Program-made: the position numbers and the translations under genes
Assembly: GCF_001548275.1 (NCBI RefSeq)
Contig: NZ_AP014945.1
Span: forward strand, 810,001 to 842,000
Source: Caldimicrobium thiodismutans
GTDB lineage: Bacteria; Desulfobacterota; Thermodesulfobacteria; Thermodesulfobacteriales; Thermodesulfobacteriaceae
Length of the DNA: 32,000 nucleotides
Reading direction: 5' to 3'
Shown here: positions 4,943 to 29,860 of the stretch, piece by piece
Layout of the letters: each line of letters starts with the position of its first letter
How positions within the stretch are numbered: the first letter of the stretch is position 1
Notes under the pieces: generated by a model
What the model was told of the DNA's origin: nothing
Database searches by the model: none
Seen by the model: only the letters and a program-made list of their open reading frames with translations

Positions 4943-5094
4943 ATCCTTACAAGAAAAAGGTGAGAGGTGAAAGTAAGGGAAGCCCCTTGCGTGTCTGTCC
5001 AATCCTTGCGTGTCTGCCTGATAATGTAAAGGAACATATAACAGGCAAATACATAGCCAAAAGAGGGCAACACACAGGTTTGCCCCTACAAAAT
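4943..5094 (+). repeat. Dispersed repeat, copy 1 (inverted partner at 13936-14099)
   Basis: ATCCTTACAAGAAAA...GGGAAGCCCCTTGCGTGTCTGTCCAATCCTTGCGTGTCTGCCTGATAATGTAAAGGAACATATAACAGGCAAATAC...CAGGTTTGCCCCTACAAAA aligns with the reverse complement of 13936-14099. The ~75-nt core is about 88% identical by eye. It contains an internal direct repeat CCTTGCGTGTCTG x2 and a GGCAA/TTGCC hairpin. Confidence 0.8.
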
Positions 5095-7627: not shown

Positions 7628-7655
7628 TTGAAATCCCTATAAATTCCGGCAAAAT
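7628..7655 (+). promoter_or_regulatory. Promoter of the decayed Rpn copy (duplicate of 28686-28713)
   Basis: TTGAAA (7628-7633), 16-nt spacer, CAAAAT (7650-7655), 6 nt, ATG at 7662. Near-identical to the promoter of the intact copy. Confidence 0.45.
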
Positions 7656-7661
7656 ACCTCT

Positions 7662-8341
7662 ATGCCAAAGAAGAAACCTCCTGTTCCCTATGACCTTTTT
7701 GCCAAGGCCTTCCTCAAAGACCCTGAAAACTTAAAAGGCTTCCTCTCAACCTTCCTCCCTGATCACATTAAAACTCATCTTGACCTTGACTCCCTTATAA
7801 AATTATCCCGGAAGAGCAAGTTTCTCTTTCTCCCTGTTTTCCCCTTGTGTTTTATGAAGGGAAATAAGCCCTGGGTGTATCCTGAAAGGATAGAGGAGAT
7901 ATTTTCAGTGCCAGAGGGGTTAAAGGGAGAACTTTTTAAGGTTCATGTGGTTGATTTAAAGAGGGTGGAGGATGAGAAGATATTGAGGGTATTTGATATT
8001 TTAGCAGGGCTTGGGTGTTATCTTTATTTAATAAAGGCGGAATCAAGGGATTTTGAAAGATGGAGTTAAAGAGCTTTTGGGATAGAGTGGGAGAGAAGTT
8101 TTATAAGCAGGGAATTGAGCAGGGAATTGAGCAAGGAATTGAGCAGGGGAAATATCAGGGGTTAATTGAGGAGGCAAGGGAGCTTGTGCTTGAGGCCATA
8201 GAGGTGAAGCTTGGGTATGTGCCGGAGGAAGTGAGGGAGAGGGTGGTAAGGGAGGAAGATAGAGGAGTTCTTAAGGAGTGGCATAGAAAAATAATCCTTG
8301 CAAAGAGCTCTGAAGATATCTTTAAACTCTTTGAAAATTGA
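7662..8341 (+). pseudogene. Decayed Rpn/YhgA-like (PD-(D/E)XK, Transposase_31 family) gene with internal deletions
   Basis: Direct repeat of 28720-29754. It lacks ~190 nt (junction near 7830), which removes the catalytic core, and 166 nt (junction 8057/8058). It also carries small indels. The result is two ORFs, 7662-8069 and 8060-8341. Confidence 0.85.
8060..8341 (+). CDS. Intact 93-aa C-terminal Rpn-derived ORF (possible stand-alone RpnS-like small protein)
   Basis: 282 nt, collinear with 29473-29754 and without any indel. 16 codon differences, 11 of them synonymous. The ATG overlaps the end of the upstream remnant ORF by 10 nt. Expression is not demonstrated. Confidence 0.4.
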   Translation: MELKSFWDRVGEKFYKQGIEQGIEQGIEQGKYQGLIEEARELVLEAIEVKLGYVPEEVRERVVREEDRGVLKEWHRKIILAKSSEDIFKLFEN

Positions 8342-8614
8342 TATTATTTAATCTTTCTTGCTTCTTTTTCTTCTATAAGCTTAGGTAAAATTATTCCCAA
8401 ATCAATTGATTCTATTATTTGCGGATTTAAAATCTGTGTTATAAAATATTTTCCTAAAAAGCAATGTTTAGTAATAAAATATTACGAACATATTATCCAT
8501 AACGAGCAGGGAGGACGGACGGGAAGCATTATATTTTGTATAAAAAAATAATCTACATTACCTGCCAAAAAAAGCATGTTTAAATCTCAAAAAATCGGGA
8601 CTTATACACCCCCC

Positions 8615-13935: not shown

Positions 13936-14099
13936 TTTTAATAGGACAAACCTGAGTGTTTGCCTGTTATATGTGCCTTTACATTATTGGGTAGACATGC
14001 AAGGATTAGGCGACACGCAAGGGCTTCCCATACCCTAACCTTTCACCTTTCACCTTTCACCTCTTACCTCTTACTACCCTTCCATTTTCTTGTAAGGAT
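13936..14099 (-). repeat. Dispersed repeat, copy 2 (inverted partner of 4943-5094), with an expanded heptamer tract
   Basis: The reverse complement aligns with 4943-5094. It contains five tandem heptamers at 14040-14074 (CTTTCAC x3, CTCTTAC x2), whereas copy 1 has two (4960-4973). Confidence 0.8.
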
Positions 14100-14407: not shown

Positions 14408-14856
14408 AGCTTATATTAAATCGCTTTTCAAACATATTAAAATTAAACTAACCTTTGAAAAATTCAACCTCTTTAATTGCCTCATTAAAAATCTATTTGA
14501 AATTTTATCGTTGCCTCATATAAAAAATCTCAGCTCCTCTTTTGAACCTTCACAAAAAAACTATCTATTTCGCCCCTCTTAAATTTACAAGCTTAGTTCT
14601 TTAGCAAAGCTTATTTCAAAGGAAAGTGTAGGTAAGAAGCTTTATAGAAAGATAAGGAGATATCAGAAAATGCTTGAAAGAGCATATTTAGAGAAAAATG
14701 GGAATTATTTTCGGGGAAAAATTGACAATAAAAAGGAGGGGAAGGTAAAATAATTTCCTTTAGAAAATTAAATGAGGCATTACGCTTTAACCTTCTCATT
14801 TCTCCTGTAGCAAAAAGTTTTTAAGCAACCTTCCTCAGATCAACCACCCTTTATAA

Positions 14857-28685: not shown

Positions 28686-28713
28686 TTGAAATCCCTCTAA
28701 ATTCTGGCAAAAT
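28686..28713 (+). promoter_or_regulatory. Sigma-70-type promoter of the intact Rpn gene, leaderless layout
   Basis: TTGAAA (28686-28691), 16-nt spacer, CAAAAT (28708-28713), 6 nt, ATG at 28720. No SD. The upstream box lies at 28659-28673. Confidence 0.45.
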
Positions 28714-28719
28714 ACCTCT

Positions 28720-29754
28720 ATGTCAAAGAAGAAACCTCCTGTTCCCTATGACCTTTTTGCCAAGGCCTTCCTCAAAGACCCTGAAAACTTAAAAGCCTTC
28801 CTCTCAACCTTCCTCCCTGAGCACATTAAAACTCATCTTGACCTTGACTCCCTTAAAATCATCCCTGAAGAACAGGTTTCCCTTTCAAGAAAAAAGCGAG
28901 AAATCCCAGATCTTGTTGCAGAGGTTAATCTCCTTAGTGAAGGTAAACCTTCAACCAAAGCCCATCTCTACATCCTTATTGAGCACAAAAGTGCACCTGA
29001 TAAAAGAATTTACCTTCAGATTTTAAATTACATAACCGCTTTAAATGAGAGGTCTTTCAAGGAGGGGAAGGGGTATGTGCCTGTTTTACCTCTTGTGTTT
29101 TATGAAGGGGATAAGCCCTGGGGCTATCCTGAAAGGATAGAGGAGATATTTTCAGTGCCAGAGGGGTTAAAGGGAGAACTTTTTAAGGTTCATGTGGTAG
29201 ATTTAAAGAGGGTAGAGGATGAGAAGATATTGAGGGTATTTGATATTTTAGCAGGGCTTGGGTGTTATCTTTATTTAATGAAGGCGGAATCACTGGATTT
29301 TGAAGAGATAATTGAAGTTATTACAAGGGCGACAGAGAGATTAGTAGCAATAGGGGAGAAAGGAAGATGGGAGATGGGATTTTTGATTAGGATATCTGAA
29401 ATAAAGTTCAGGGTTGACGGGGAGGTAATCTGGTTTAATATATTAGATAGTTGTGAAGAAGAGGGGGTAAAGATGGAGTTAAAGAGCTTTTGGGATAAAG
29501 TGGGAGAGAAGTTTTATAAGCAGGGAATTGAGCAGGGAATTAAGCAAGGGATTGAGCAGGGGAAATATCAGGGGTTAATTGAGGATGCAAGGGAGCTTGT
29601 GCTTGAGGCGATAGAGGTGAAGCTTGGGTATGTGCCGGAGGAAGTAAGGGAGAGGGTGGTAAGAGAAGAGGATAGAGGAGTTCTCAAGGAGTGGCTGAGG
29701 AAAATAATTCTTGCCAAAGGTTCTGAAGATATCTTTAAACTCTTTGAAAATTGA
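28720..29754 (+). CDS. Rpn/YhgA-like recombination-promoting nuclease (PD-(D/E)XK; Transposase_31 family, often annotated as a putative transposase)
   Basis: 344 aa. YDLFAKAFLKDPENLKAFL, PDLVAEV...LYILIEHKSAPDKRIYLQILNY and LPLVFYEGDKPWGYP parallel E. coli YhgA/RpnA (VLIEHQS.PDKHMAFRL..Y; PVLFYHG). C-terminal GIEQGIKQGIEQG repeats are typical of the family. Confidence 0.85.
   Translation: MSKKKPPVPYDLFAKAFLKDPENLKAFLSTFLPEHIKTHLDLDSLKIIPEEQVSLSRKKREIPDLVAEVNLLSEGKPSTKAHLYILIEHKSAPDKRIYLQILNYITALNERSFKEGKGYVPVLPLVFYEGDKPWGYPERIEEIFSVPEGLKGELFKVHVVDLKRVEDEKILRVFDILAGLGCYLYLMKAESLDFEEIIEVITRATERLVAIGEKGRWEMGFLIRISEIKFRVDGEVIWFNILDSCEEEGVKMELKSFWDKVGEKFYKQGIEQGIKQGIEQGKYQGLIEDARELVLEAIEVKLGYVPEEVRERVVREEDRGVLKEWLRKIILAKGSEDIFKLFEN
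29473..29754 (+). CDS. Candidate internal in-frame product of the Rpn gene (93 aa, RpnS-like)
   Basis: In-frame ATG (Met252) preceded by GAGGGGG (29461-29467) at 5-nt spacing. The same 93-codon ORF survives intact in the decayed copy at 8060-8341. Confidence 0.4.
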   Translation: MELKSFWDKVGEKFYKQGIEQGIKQGIEQGKYQGLIEDARELVLEAIEVKLGYVPEEVRERVVREEDRGVLKEWLRKIILAKGSEDIFKLFEN

Positions 29755-29860
29755 TAATTTGTAAGCTTTCTTGTATTCTTTTCTGCTATAAGCATAGTCA
29801 AAAATTCCTTTTAAAAAAAATCCTCTTTAAGTTGTAAAAAATATGGATGCATGCATGCCC

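What the first reader, a model, noticed from the sequence alone, without database searches (positions are those of the whole stretch)
7628..8400. Decayed second Rpn copy: nuclease core deleted, 93-codon C-terminal ORF intact with mostly synonymous divergence
Seen: 7628-~8400 is a direct repeat of 28686-~29810, covering the promoter, the ORF and ~55 nt of 3' flank. Retained blocks are roughly 94-96% identical by eye. The copy lacks ~190 nt (junction near 7830, corresponding to ~28887-29079). That segment encodes PDLVAEV...ILIEHKS, the whole catalytic core. It also lacks 166 nt (junction 8057/8058, corresponding to 29305-29470) and has small frame-shifting indels around 7795-7870. The last 282 nt (8060-8341), by contrast, have no indel. 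By my manual count they differ from 29473-29754 at 16 codons: 11 synonymous and 5 replacement (R9K, E24K, E38D, H75L, S82G). The retained first ~140 nt show 3 differences, all replacement. The remnant N-terminal ORF stops at 8069 and overlaps the ATG at 8060, so translational coupling is possible even though the internal SD was deleted. Inference: this pattern fits selective retention of a stand-alone RpnS-like antitoxin or immunity protein after loss of the toxin moiety. Caveat: constraint acting only on the intact copy, or gene conversion, could produce part of the synonymous bias.
Basis: partly seen in the sequence, partly recalled or inferred. Interest (0 to 1): 0.65.

Follow-up and report, generated by a model that had tools for sequence, protein, structure and literature searches.

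The report
Decayed Rpn toxin-antitoxin gene copy
A broken second copy of an Rpn nuclease defence gene has lost its DNA-cutting core but keeps an intact small "antitoxin" reading frame; the mostly silent differences that seemed to show selection come largely from sequence exchange among about nine sister genes, so it is most likely an ordinary gene relic, with a working orphan antitoxin still possible.

Summary
Window 7628-8355 is a direct repeat of the intact Rpn gene at 28686-29768. It lacks the PD-(D/E)XK core (B 28887-29079) and a further 166 nt (B 29305-29470). That leaves a 135-codon remnant ORF overlapping an intact 93-codon ORF that begins at the intact gene's internal start codon.

The source is a Caldimicrobium thiodismutans genome with 7 intact Rpn paralogues, one N-truncated copy and this relic. 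The same two deletion junctions occur at the orthologous trmD/tRNA-Leu locus in other assemblies, so the relic predates their split.

The selection argument does not hold:
- Only 3 of the 18 nucleotide differences in the small ORF are specific to the relic lineage.
- Orthologous relics differ 4.8 times more than their flanks, mostly by alleles present in other paralogues. This indicates gene conversion.
- The internal promoter-like site and strong Shine-Dalgarno sequence were deleted.
- The ORF staying intact over this short divergence is expected by chance.

Stand-alone RpnS genes are already documented in E. coli (ypaA). My verdict is an ordinary decaying paralogue (about 0.55). A functional orphan RpnS remains possible (about 0.33). 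Interest is low to moderate.

The parts
7628..7655 (+). Promoter-like site of copy A (TTGAAA, 16 nt spacer, CAAAAT). It ends 6 nt before the ATG, so the mRNA is probably leaderless. Homology to all paralogues starts exactly at the -35 hexamer.
   Evidence: No SD before the ATG (-1.7 kcal/mol).
7662..8069 (+). Remnant ORF1 (135 codons). It comprises Rpn residues 1-45, about 22 frame-shifted codons, then residues about 131-196 in frame. It ends at a TAA that overlaps the ORF2 ATG.
   Evidence: Weak PF04754 match, 38 bits.
7796..7799 (+). +2 nt insertion (TATA against TA), present only in the window strain.
7830..7833 (+). Junction of the catalytic-core deletion. B 28887-29079 is replaced by TC. 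The same junction is present in L037 and L040, and in L037 the ORF reads through in frame (net 192 nt missing).
7859..7864 (+). +1 nt in a G/A run. It is shared with L040 and absent from L037. Together with the +2 it reopens the frame in the window strain.
8057..8058 (+). Junction of the 166-nt deletion (B 29305-29470), with 2-3 nt of microhomology (AA/AAG). It is identical in all orthologues.
8060..8341 (+). ORF2, 93 codons: an intact RpnS-like C-terminal module.
8108..8155 (+). 12-nt (four-residue) repeats QGIE-QGIE-QGIE-QGKY inside ORF2. One unit is missing in the orthologues L037, L038 and L040.
8342..8385 (+). 3' flank shared only with copy B (29755 to about 29800) and with no other paralogue. 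This marks A and B as products of one duplication of about 1.1 kb.
28686..28713 (+). Promoter-like site of copy B (TTGAAA, 16 nt spacer, CAAAAT).
28720..29754 (+). Copy B: an intact 344-codon Rpn family nuclease gene (RpnL).
28887..29079 (+). Segment of B that is missing from copy A. It encodes the PD-(D/E)XK core (D64, E88, K90).
29305..29470 (+). Second segment of B that is missing from copy A. It contains a promoter-like site at 29414-29441 (TTGACG, 16 nt spacer, TAATAT) and the SD GAGGGGG at 29461-29467.
29473..29754 (+). Predicted intragenic RpnS of copy B. It has an internal ATG with a strong SD (-12.4 kcal/mol, 5 nt spacing).
   Evidence: A comparable SD followed by GTG-GTG occurs at about the corresponding position (located by eye) in the 49%-identical homologue L001.

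Best explanation
Copy A is a nuclease-dead relic (pseudogene) of one member of a family of about nine Rpn toxin-antitoxin/defence genes in Caldimicrobium thiodismutans.

Origin. An ancestral duplicate of about 1.1 kb, sister to copy B, took two deletions. One, the one upstream in the gene, was an in-frame loss of the PD-(D/E)XK catalytic core. The other was a 166-nt out-of-frame deletion. This second deletion removed the linker together with the internal promoter-like site and the Shine-Dalgarno sequence that drive the intragenic antitoxin RpnS in intact genes. Which of the two deletions came first is not known. Both deletions were fixed before the sampled strains diverged.

What remains. The surviving 93-codon ORF is the RpnS module.

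Why it looks conserved. The appearance of conservation comes from three sources:
(i) substitutions on the lineage of the intact copy B;
(ii) variants that segregate among paralogues and are moved into the relic by short-tract gene conversion from intact, selected genes;
(iii) changes made while the copy was still whole.

No selection on the relic itself is needed. Over the short time sampled, the ORF staying intact is expected by chance.

Shown: the anatomy, the family membership, the shared junctions, the excess mosaic divergence and the loss of expression signals. Inferred: lack of function.
For: Family and inventory.
- Copy B matches PF04754 and TIGR01784 above their cut-offs.
- The 1.81-Mb genome encodes 7 full-length paralogues plus the N-truncated THC_0388.

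Shared junctions. Both deletion junctions are identical in L037, L038 and L040 at the syntenic trmD...tRNA-Leu/opp locus.

Gene conversion.
- The window and L037 are 99.1% identical over 12,970 nt.
- Copy A nevertheless holds 21 of the 96 mismatches in 5.5% of that length. This is 4.8 times the flank rate, P = 5e-8.
- ORF2 pS among orthologues is 0.08-0.125, against 0.014-0.022 in 15 flanking genes.
- 11 of 15 variable ORF2 columns carry alleles present in other paralogues. One example is the tract GGATTGATACAG, which is identical to L035 and L039.
- In 8150-8341 the window copy is as far from its own orthologue (10/192) as from the non-orthologous L036 and L042 (9/192 each).

A versus B. Only 3 of the 18 ORF2 differences are relic-specific, 5 are B-specific and 10 are shared polymorphisms. 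dN is equal in all blocks.

The synonymous bias is not specific to ORF2. Relic-specific fixed changes are 2 synonymous in the mid block of ORF1 and 2 synonymous in ORF2.

Expression signals. The SD falls from -12.4 to -5.1 kcal/mol, which is background level. The promoter-like site at 29414-29441 lies in the deleted segment.

Chance survival. Only 7.5% of point changes destroy the ORF. P(intact) from substitutions alone is about 0.55 for the sampled tree, and P(all small indels fall outside ORF2) is 0.22-0.37.

Decay is common in this family.
- Frameshift-split copies: L036 (230+101 aa) and L041 (226+89 aa).
- A copy with a shortened C-terminus: P0083.
- ORF2 is not among the proteins on record for this genome.
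Against: - ORF2 is intact in all four orthologous sequences, whereas ORF1 took frame-changing indels in two of three lineages.
- In the window strain a +2 and a +1 indel together reopen ORF1 up to the stop that overlaps the ORF2 ATG. This could reflect selection for translational coupling.
- The 5' promoter-like site is retained.
- ORF2's repeat segment (23 residues) equals that of copy B, and of no other intact paralogue in this genome. In E. coli, equal repeat number is required for neutralisation (PMC10400941).
- Alleles found in no sampled paralogue are 4 synonymous to 2-3 replacement in ORF2. This is nominally biased (hand binomial calculation from the counts, about P 0.02-0.03). DNA of the seven other paralogues of this genome was not available, so 'novel' is uncertain.
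- E. coli ypaA is annotated as a pseudogene yet is expressed as RpnESs.
Confidence: 0.55

Rival explanations
1. After loss of the toxin core, the 93-codon ORF is retained by selection as a stand-alone RpnS-type antitoxin (an 'RpnSs'). It would be transcribed from the retained leaderless promoter at 7628-7655 and translated by termination-reinitiation coupling with ORF1 (stop 8067-8069 over ATG 8060). It would bind RpnL proteins with the same repeat length, which in this genome means copy B, and so buffer their toxicity or tune the defence threshold.
For: - The ORF is intact in 4 of 4 orthologous sequences while ORF1 is disrupted or re-opened.
- The overlapping stop/start is preserved in all of them.
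- The repeat segment length of 23 matches copy B only among the intact paralogues.
- Stand-alone RpnS genes exist and are expressed (PMC10400941).
- 8 of 36 small homologues match DUF4351.
- About 40 free-standing small homologues were found.
- There is a weak synonymous excess among alleles not seen in other paralogues.
- The AlphaFold2 model is confidently helical in its C-terminal two-thirds (mean pLDDT 82.7).
Against: - The SD and the internal promoter-like site are deleted.
- The synonymous bias is explained by copy-B changes and conversion, and it is equally present in the 'junk' mid block.
- Post-split novel changes are 2N:2S.
- The repeat length is 19 in the orthologues, while their copy-B orthologues have 23 or 27.
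- The sampled divergence is too short for intactness to be informative.
- In L040, ORF1 is split, so coupling is not conserved.
Confidence: 0.33
2. The relic, like the N-truncated THC_0388, serves as a silent donor cassette. It would be an unexpressed store of C-terminal and repeat variants that gene conversion copies into intact Rpn genes. This would diversify the RpnL/RpnS interaction helix in the manner of pilS or vls cassettes.
For: - Gene conversion among paralogues is evident.
- C-termini and repeat numbers are hypervariable even between orthologues. The copy-B orthologue L039 is 99.5% identical downstream of the repeats but only 88% identical across and just upstream of the repeat region.
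- The authors of PMC10400941 leave the diversification mechanism open.
Against: - Every detectable transfer is into the relic.
- Its four private fixed variants (7952, 7967, 8257, 8296) occur in no sampled paralogue, so there is no evidence that it acts as a donor.
- With 7 intact paralogues available as donors, a silent cassette adds little.
Confidence: 0.07
3. The pattern is an assembly artefact or a chance similarity.
For: None.
Against: - The blocks are 91-97% identical over about 700 nt.
- Identical junctions occur in independent assemblies from other samples.
Confidence: 0.01

Closest known systems
RpnL/RpnS intragenic toxin-antitoxin (antiphage) systems of E. coli and C. difficile (Zhong et al. 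2023, PMC10400941)
   Same: - Copy B is a PF04754/TIGR01784 protein with the PD-(D/E)XK motif.
- It has an internal start with a strong SD and a promoter-like site upstream.
- It has a helical C-terminal module carrying four-residue repeats (QGIE, compared with KGIE in E. coli RpnC) that start 17 residues after the internal Met.
- Repeat number varies in steps of 4 residues between paralogues and strains (11 to 31 residues).
- The genes are multi-copy, sit as single-gene insertions between housekeeping genes, and lack terminal repeats.
   Different: - Nothing is shown experimentally here.
- The organism is a thermophilic Thermodesulfobacteriota species.
- Copy A has lost both the toxin core and the internal expression signals.
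- Sequence similarity of the C-terminal module to E. coli RpnS is not detectable (hhalign probability 1%; PDB 7TH0 not hit).
Stand-alone RpnSs genes (E. coli ypaA/RpnESs, rpnCSs; DUF4351, PF14261)
   Same: - A free-standing ORF equal to the C-terminal module of an Rpn gene, derived from a paralogous or duplicated rpn gene.
- ypaA is likewise annotated as a pseudogene.
- 8 of 36 small homologues of ORF2 match DUF4351.
   Different: - ypaA lies immediately downstream of its intact parent rpnE and is shown to be expressed.
- ORF2 lies 21 kb from copy B, sits behind a decayed N-terminal remnant, lacks an SD, and does not itself reach the DUF4351 model.
Orphan antitoxins and toxin-inactivated toxin-antitoxin relics in bacterial genomes (general knowledge)
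   Same: The toxin moiety is destroyed while the antitoxin reading frame survives.
   Different: Here toxin and antitoxin share one reading frame, so loss of the toxin needed an internal deletion. Retention by selection is not demonstrated.
Concerted evolution and gene conversion in multigene families, including pseudogene recipients (general knowledge)
   Same: - Mosaic, clustered variants are shared with paralogues.
- Orthologues are more divergent than their flanks.
- Frameshift-split copies appear to be chimeras where two sequence types differ by compensating indels (read by eye).
   Different: No donor role for the relic has been shown.

Membership tests
Rpn family (PF04754 Transposase_31 / TIGR01784) | Significant match to the family HMMs above the curated cut-offs | tested here: met
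   Copy B: PF04754 99.4 bits (cut-off 21) and TIGR01784 72.4 bits (cut-off 52.1). Copy A ORF1: PF04754 38.2 bits, in two fragments.
Rpn family (PF04754 Transposase_31 / TIGR01784) | PD-(D/E)XK catalytic motif (D ... E-x-K) | tested here: met
   Copy B has PD64LV and IE88HK90S. These align by eye with the SDVL/IEHQ positions of E. coli RpnE. For copy A the feature is not met, because the whole segment (B 28887-29079) is deleted.
RpnS (intragenic antitoxin of Rpn genes) | Corresponds to the C-terminal module of an Rpn gene and begins at an internal translation start with its own ribosome-binding site | tested here: met
   In copy B, ATG 29473 is preceded by GAGGGGG at 5 nt spacing, -12.4 kcal/mol, and by a promoter-like site at 29414-29441. 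ORF2 of copy A starts at the same ATG, but its SD and promoter are deleted (-5.1 kcal/mol).
RpnS (intragenic antitoxin of Rpn genes) | Four-residue repeats, variable in number, starting 8-20 residues after the initiating Met | tested here: met
   QGIE/QGIK units start at residue 17. The segment between KFY and ARELV is 11, 15, 19, 23, 27 or 31 residues in paralogues and orthologues.
RpnS (intragenic antitoxin of Rpn genes) | Compact helical bundle with a long first helix, as in RpnA-S (PDB 7TH0) | tested here: inconclusive
   The AlphaFold2 model is all-helical: H3-51 followed by three short helices, mean pLDDT 82.7. Foldseek against the PDB gave no match with E below 1, and 7TH0 was not listed. 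A profile search of PDB sequences gave nothing relevant.
RpnS (intragenic antitoxin of Rpn genes) | The small protein is actually made | not testable with these tools
   This needs Ribo-seq, tagging or proteomics in C. thiodismutans.
RpnS (intragenic antitoxin of Rpn genes) | Binds and neutralises the RpnL with the same repeat number | not testable with these tools
   Only compatibility can be stated. ORF2 and copy B both have a 23-residue repeat segment. The orthologues have 19 while their copy-B orthologues have 23 or 27.
Stand-alone RpnSs / DUF4351 (PF14261) | Match to the PF14261 model | tested here: not met
   ORF2 has no PF14261 hit at E up to 1 or 0.01. 8 of 36 small homologues found with ORF2 do match, so the link is transitive only.
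Stand-alone RpnSs / DUF4351 (PF14261) | Detectable homology to an experimentally validated RpnSs (E. coli YpaA) | tested here: not met
   hhalign of the ORF2 family profile against YpaA gave probability 1% and E 0.054 over 10 columns. The paper describes these tails as highly variable.

The most novel reading that the evidence does not exclude
In a thermophile carrying about nine Rpn genes, a toxin-deleted paralogue is kept as a trans-acting orphan RpnS. It would be expressed from the old leaderless gene promoter by coupling to the remnant ORF, and it would neutralise the one intact RpnL with the same repeat length (copy B). Gene conversion among paralogues would continually re-tune its specificity. 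This would amount to a cross-regulating network of Rpn toxin-antitoxin genes rather than independent single-gene modules.
Probability: 0.3. Interest if true: 0.45.

Novelty: new member of a known kind. Interest (0 to 1): 0.25.

Why it matters
If the small ORF were functional, it would be a natural case of an intragenic antitoxin freed from its toxin and acting in trans on a paralogue. That would bear on how multi-copy Rpn defence genes coexist in one cell.

As it stands, the value is mainly methodological. In multi-copy, conversion-prone families such as Rpn, pairwise dN/dS between a relic and an intact paralogue does not measure selection on the relic. Even orthologue comparisons are contaminated by imported, pre-selected variants.

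The data also point to paralogue gene conversion, in addition to 12-nt repeat slippage, as a source of the C-terminal hypervariability that Zhong et al. left unexplained.

Tried and rejected
- Exact look-ups of the window's own proteins found nothing on record. The source genome is not in the contig index.
- The genome-contig scan with copy B returned only relatives at 49% identity or less. The source genome and its paralogue DNA are absent there. DNA of the seven other paralogues of this genome could therefore not be used, only their proteins.
- A metagenome scan for the 166-nt deletion junction (24-mer) gave one unrelated chance hit, L043.
- A PDB sequence search with copy B and with the ORF2 profile gave nothing relevant.
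- Foldseek of the ORF2 model gave nothing significant.
- hhalign against E. coli YpaA was not significant.
- Pairwise dN/dS of A against B was reproduced (omega 0.09) but rejected as evidence, for the reasons given in the report.
- A Fisher test of the synonymous/replacement split between blocks was not significant (P = 0.24).
- A test for clustering of window-versus-L037 differences (maximum in 30 nt) was not significant on its own (P = 0.10). The excess over the flanks and the allele sharing carry the conversion argument.
- The terminator-like hairpin at 7810-7830 across the deletion junction is within chance expectation.
- Rfam found only the four tRNAs.
Full report
**Observation.**
The window holds an intact 344-codon gene at 28720-29754 (copy B) and a shortened direct repeat of it at 7628-8355 (copy A). 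The repeat finder returns three co-linear blocks: 7628-7800 at 97%, 7833-8057 at 91% and 8056-8355 at 93%. The offsets are 21058, 21247 and 21413, so the net losses are 189 nt and 166 nt. The pairwise alignment and the raw sequence place the first loss at B 28887-29079, replaced by TC at 7831-7832. The second loss is B 29305-29470, with the junction at 8057/8058. Small indels lie beside the first junction: a +2 within 7796-7799, a +1 in the run 7859-7864, and a -1 just right of the junction. ORF 7662-8069 (135 codons) overlaps ORF 8060-8341 (93 codons) by 10 nt. There are 16 differing codons in the last 93, of which 11 are synonymous and 5 are replacements (the last is S83G, not S82G). In the first 44 codons there are 3 differences, all replacements. 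NG86 omega is 0.09 for the C-terminal block.

**What the genes are.**
Copy B matches PF04754 (99 bits) and TIGR01784, 'Rpn family recombination-promoting nuclease/putative transposase' (72 bits). Both scores are above the curated cut-offs. It carries the motif PD64LV...IE88HK90S. Named homologues place the window in Caldimicrobium thiodismutans, on a 1,814,952-bp replicon. That genome encodes seven full-length paralogues of 329-348 residues, among them P0001 (copy B), P0063 (RefSeq's 329-residue model, sharing its sequence with THC_1337), P0067 (THC_1743), P0068 (THC_1666) and P0084. It also encodes an N-terminally truncated copy, THC_0388 (225 residues in GenBank, 248 in RefSeq), which lacks the catalytic core. 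Copy A is therefore one of about nine copies. Its 93-residue ORF is not among the proteins on record for the genome.

**Relation to the published RpnL/RpnS system.**
Zhong et al. 2023 (PMC10400941) reported several relevant points:
- rpn genes contain an internal promoter and an internal translation start that produce the C-terminal tail as a separate small protein, RpnS.
- RpnS binds and neutralises the toxic full-length nuclease, RpnL.
- The shared helix carries four-residue repeats that begin 8-20 residues after the internal Met.
- Repeat number varies between strains, and only an RpnS with the same repeat number neutralises a given RpnL.
- RpnS can also be encoded by a separate gene (ypaA/RpnESs, rpnCSs; DUF4351).

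Copy B fits this anatomy:
- The internal ATG at 29473 is preceded at 5 nt by GAGGGGG. Pairing to the anti-SD is -12.4 kcal/mol, as strong as the best ribosome-binding sites in the window.
- A promoter-like TTGACG-16-TAATAT lies at 29414-29441.
- QGIE/QGIK repeats begin at residue 17 of the internal ORF.
- A 49%-identical homologue keeps an SD followed by GTG-GTG at about the corresponding position, located by eye.

The start of the gene itself has no SD (-1.5 kcal/mol), and a -10-like hexamer ends 6 nt before the ATG, which suggests a leaderless mRNA.

ORF2 of copy A is exactly this RpnS module. However, the 166 nt lost from copy A include both the promoter-like site and the SD. What remains upstream of 8060 pairs at -5.1 kcal/mol, and 28% of random positions do as well.

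Direct similarity to E. coli RpnS could not be shown. The Foldseek, PDB profile and hhalign searches were all negative. This is expected for such variable tails. Eight of 36 small homologues of ORF2 match DUF4351.

**Orthologous loci.**
The small-protein search found close free-standing relatives, and their contigs were decisive. L037 (assembly GCA_017880035.1) and L040 (JGI metagenome 3300038964) carry the same gene order as the window: rpsP, KH-domain gene, rimM, trmD fusion, then the relic, with the opp permease genes on the far side. L038 is a short variant contig. All have both large deletion junctions at identical positions, so the relic predates the split of these strains.

In L037 the core deletion is cleanly in frame, reading ...EEQVSLS-PCF-PLVFYEGDKPW..., giving 134 residues. 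L040 has only the +1 indel, and its ORF1 is split into 67 and 71 residues. The window has the +1 and a private +2, which together reopen the frame. ORF2 is intact in all four sequences: 93 residues in the window and 89 in the others, which have one repeat unit fewer.

**Why the synonymous bias is not evidence of selection on the relic.**
First, dN is the same in all three retained blocks (0.024-0.030). Only dS differs, at 0, 0.10 and 0.275. This points to different histories for the blocks rather than different constraint.

Second, I aligned copy A, its orthologues, copy B and six other paralogue sequences. This partitions the 18 A-versus-B nucleotide differences in ORF2 into 5 found only on the B lineage, 10 whose two alleles both occur in other paralogues, and 3 specific to the relic. 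Those three are two synonymous changes (8257, 8296) and one replacement inside the repeats.

Third, the window and L037 are 99.1% identical over 12,970 nt. Fifteen flanking genes give pS 0.014 and pN 0.0026, and against L040 pS is 0.022. Yet ORF2 differs between orthologues at pS 0.08-0.125 and pN 0.02-0.03. Copy A holds 21 of the 96 mismatches in 5.5% of the aligned length, a 4.8-fold excess with P = 5e-8. Eleven of the 15 variable ORF2 columns carry alleles present in other paralogues, in tracts such as GGATTGATACAG (identical to L035 and L039) and CTGAGG (identical to B and L041). In 8150-8341 the window copy is as far from its own orthologue (10/192) as from the non-orthologous L036 and L042 (9/192 each).

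The variation is therefore imported by short-tract gene conversion from intact paralogues, where selection has already filtered it. This produces low dN/dS whatever the state of the recipient.

Changes that are new since the split number 2 replacement to 2 synonymous in ORF2, and 3 to 1 in ORF1. These counts have no statistical power.

The four fixed relic-specific changes are all synonymous (P = 0.0014 under neutrality). They fit accumulation before the deletions, or import from unsampled paralogues, better than ORF2-specific constraint.

**Is intactness informative?**
Only 7.5% of point substitutions would destroy ORF2. With the flank pS taken as the neutral rate, about 8 substitutions are expected over the sampled tree, giving P(intact) of about 0.55. 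The chance that the two or three small indels all fall outside ORF2 is 0.22-0.37. Both indels also sit within about 35 nt of the first junction. I infer that the interrupted homology there should hinder repair by conversion. Intactness of ORF2 is thus compatible with neutrality.

**Points in favour of a function.**
- ORF2 is intact in 4 of 4 sequences, while ORF1 was hit in two lineages.
- The pair of indels in the window strain is frame-restoring.
- The promoter-like site at 7628-7655 is retained, and the stop/start overlap is preserved.
- The repeat segment is 23 residues, as in copy B and in no other intact paralogue of this genome, which have 11, 11, 15, 15, 19 and 27 residues. THC_0388 also has 23.

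Against the last point, the orthologous ORF2s have 19 residues while the copy-B orthologues have 23 (P0070) or 27 (P0065, taken to be the copy-B orthologue because it lies on the same contig). E. coli ypaA, annotated as a pseudogene but shown to be expressed, is a caution against dismissing the ORF.

**Decay and conversion elsewhere in the family.**
Related assemblies contain frameshift-split copies: L036 (230+101 residues) and L041 (226+89). There is also a copy with a shortened C-terminus, P0083, along with other fragments. By my reading of the alignment, the frameshift in L036 and L041 lies where two sequence types differ by a pair of compensating indels, and the split copies look like chimeras of the two types. 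If so, conversion tract ends themselves generate pseudogenes. The copy-B orthologue L039 is 99.5% identical to the window downstream of the repeats but only 88% identical across and just upstream of the repeat region. This is the hypervariability that Zhong et al. describe.

**Verdict.**
Copy A is a nuclease-dead relic of an Rpn toxin-antitoxin gene whose RpnS module is still open. The anatomy and family assignment are shown. The claim of selective retention is neither established nor refuted, and the specific evidence offered for it is explained by gene conversion and by changes on the copy-B lineage. I rate a neutral relic at about 0.55, a functional orphan RpnS at about 0.33, a silent donor cassette at about 0.07, and an artefact at about 0.01.

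Rpn genes, intragenic RpnS, free-standing RpnS genes, repeat variation and rpn duplications are all published. At best this is a new member of a known kind. Interest is 0.25.

Noticed in passing
window 14477-14784: An insertion of about 308 nt next to tRNA-Leu(TAG). It is absent from the otherwise 99%-identical orthologous site in L037. Copies at 87-90% identity occur in L035 10156-10492 and L036 10771-11056. Its ends look like short inverted repeats (TTGCCTCATT ... AATGAGGCA). It may be a MITE-like mobile element.
   Followed up: partly
window 5001-5052 / 13956-14007 (inverted, 88%); also 1402-1457: Short dispersed intergenic repeats, also present in intergenic DNA of related contigs (L034, L035, L036, L041, L042). 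They are REP-like elements of unknown role.
   Followed up: partly
L036 3020-3060 and L041 (226-aa + 89-aa ORFs): Two frameshift-split Rpn paralogues. By eye, they break where two sequence types (TTGATTAG-GATATCTG... and TTGA-TAGAGATAGCAG...) differ by compensating indels. The split copies look like chimeras, which suggests that gene-conversion tract ends create the frameshifts.
   Followed up: partly
window 7796-7799 and 7859-7864, compared with L037 and L040: Among three near-identical strains, ORF1 of the relic is in frame (L037), broken by a +1 (L040), or reopened by an added +2 (window). This compensating pair of indels within 70 nt could be chance or selection for read-through to the ORF2 start.
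   Followed up: partly
window 28686-28722 and 7628-7664: The rpn genes have no Shine-Dalgarno sequence, and the -10-like hexamer ends 6 nt before the ATG, so the full-length RpnL mRNA is probably leaderless. The internal RpnS start, by contrast, has one of the strongest SDs in the window. This would be a built-in bias toward antitoxin translation.
   Followed up: partly
L039 1-360, compared with window 29376-29768: The orthologue of copy B in another sample is 99.5% identical downstream of the repeats. Across and just upstream of the repeat region it is only 88% identical, and it has three fewer repeat units there (11 against 23 residues). The C-terminus is hypervariable between orthologues.
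   Followed up: partly
Homology boundaries of all paralogues (window 28686 and 7628; stop codon + about 5 nt): All sampled Rpn copies share homology that starts exactly at the -35 hexamer and ends a few nt after the stop codon, with no terminal repeats or target duplications. Only A and B share a further 45 nt or so of 3' flank. How the 1.1-kb unit spreads between housekeeping genes is unexplained.
   Followed up: no
L044 7817-8002 (E. coli K-12 ypaA): RefSeq flags ypaA as a pseudogene, although PMC10400941 shows that it is translated as RpnESs. Annotation status is therefore a poor guide for such fragments.
   Followed up: yes
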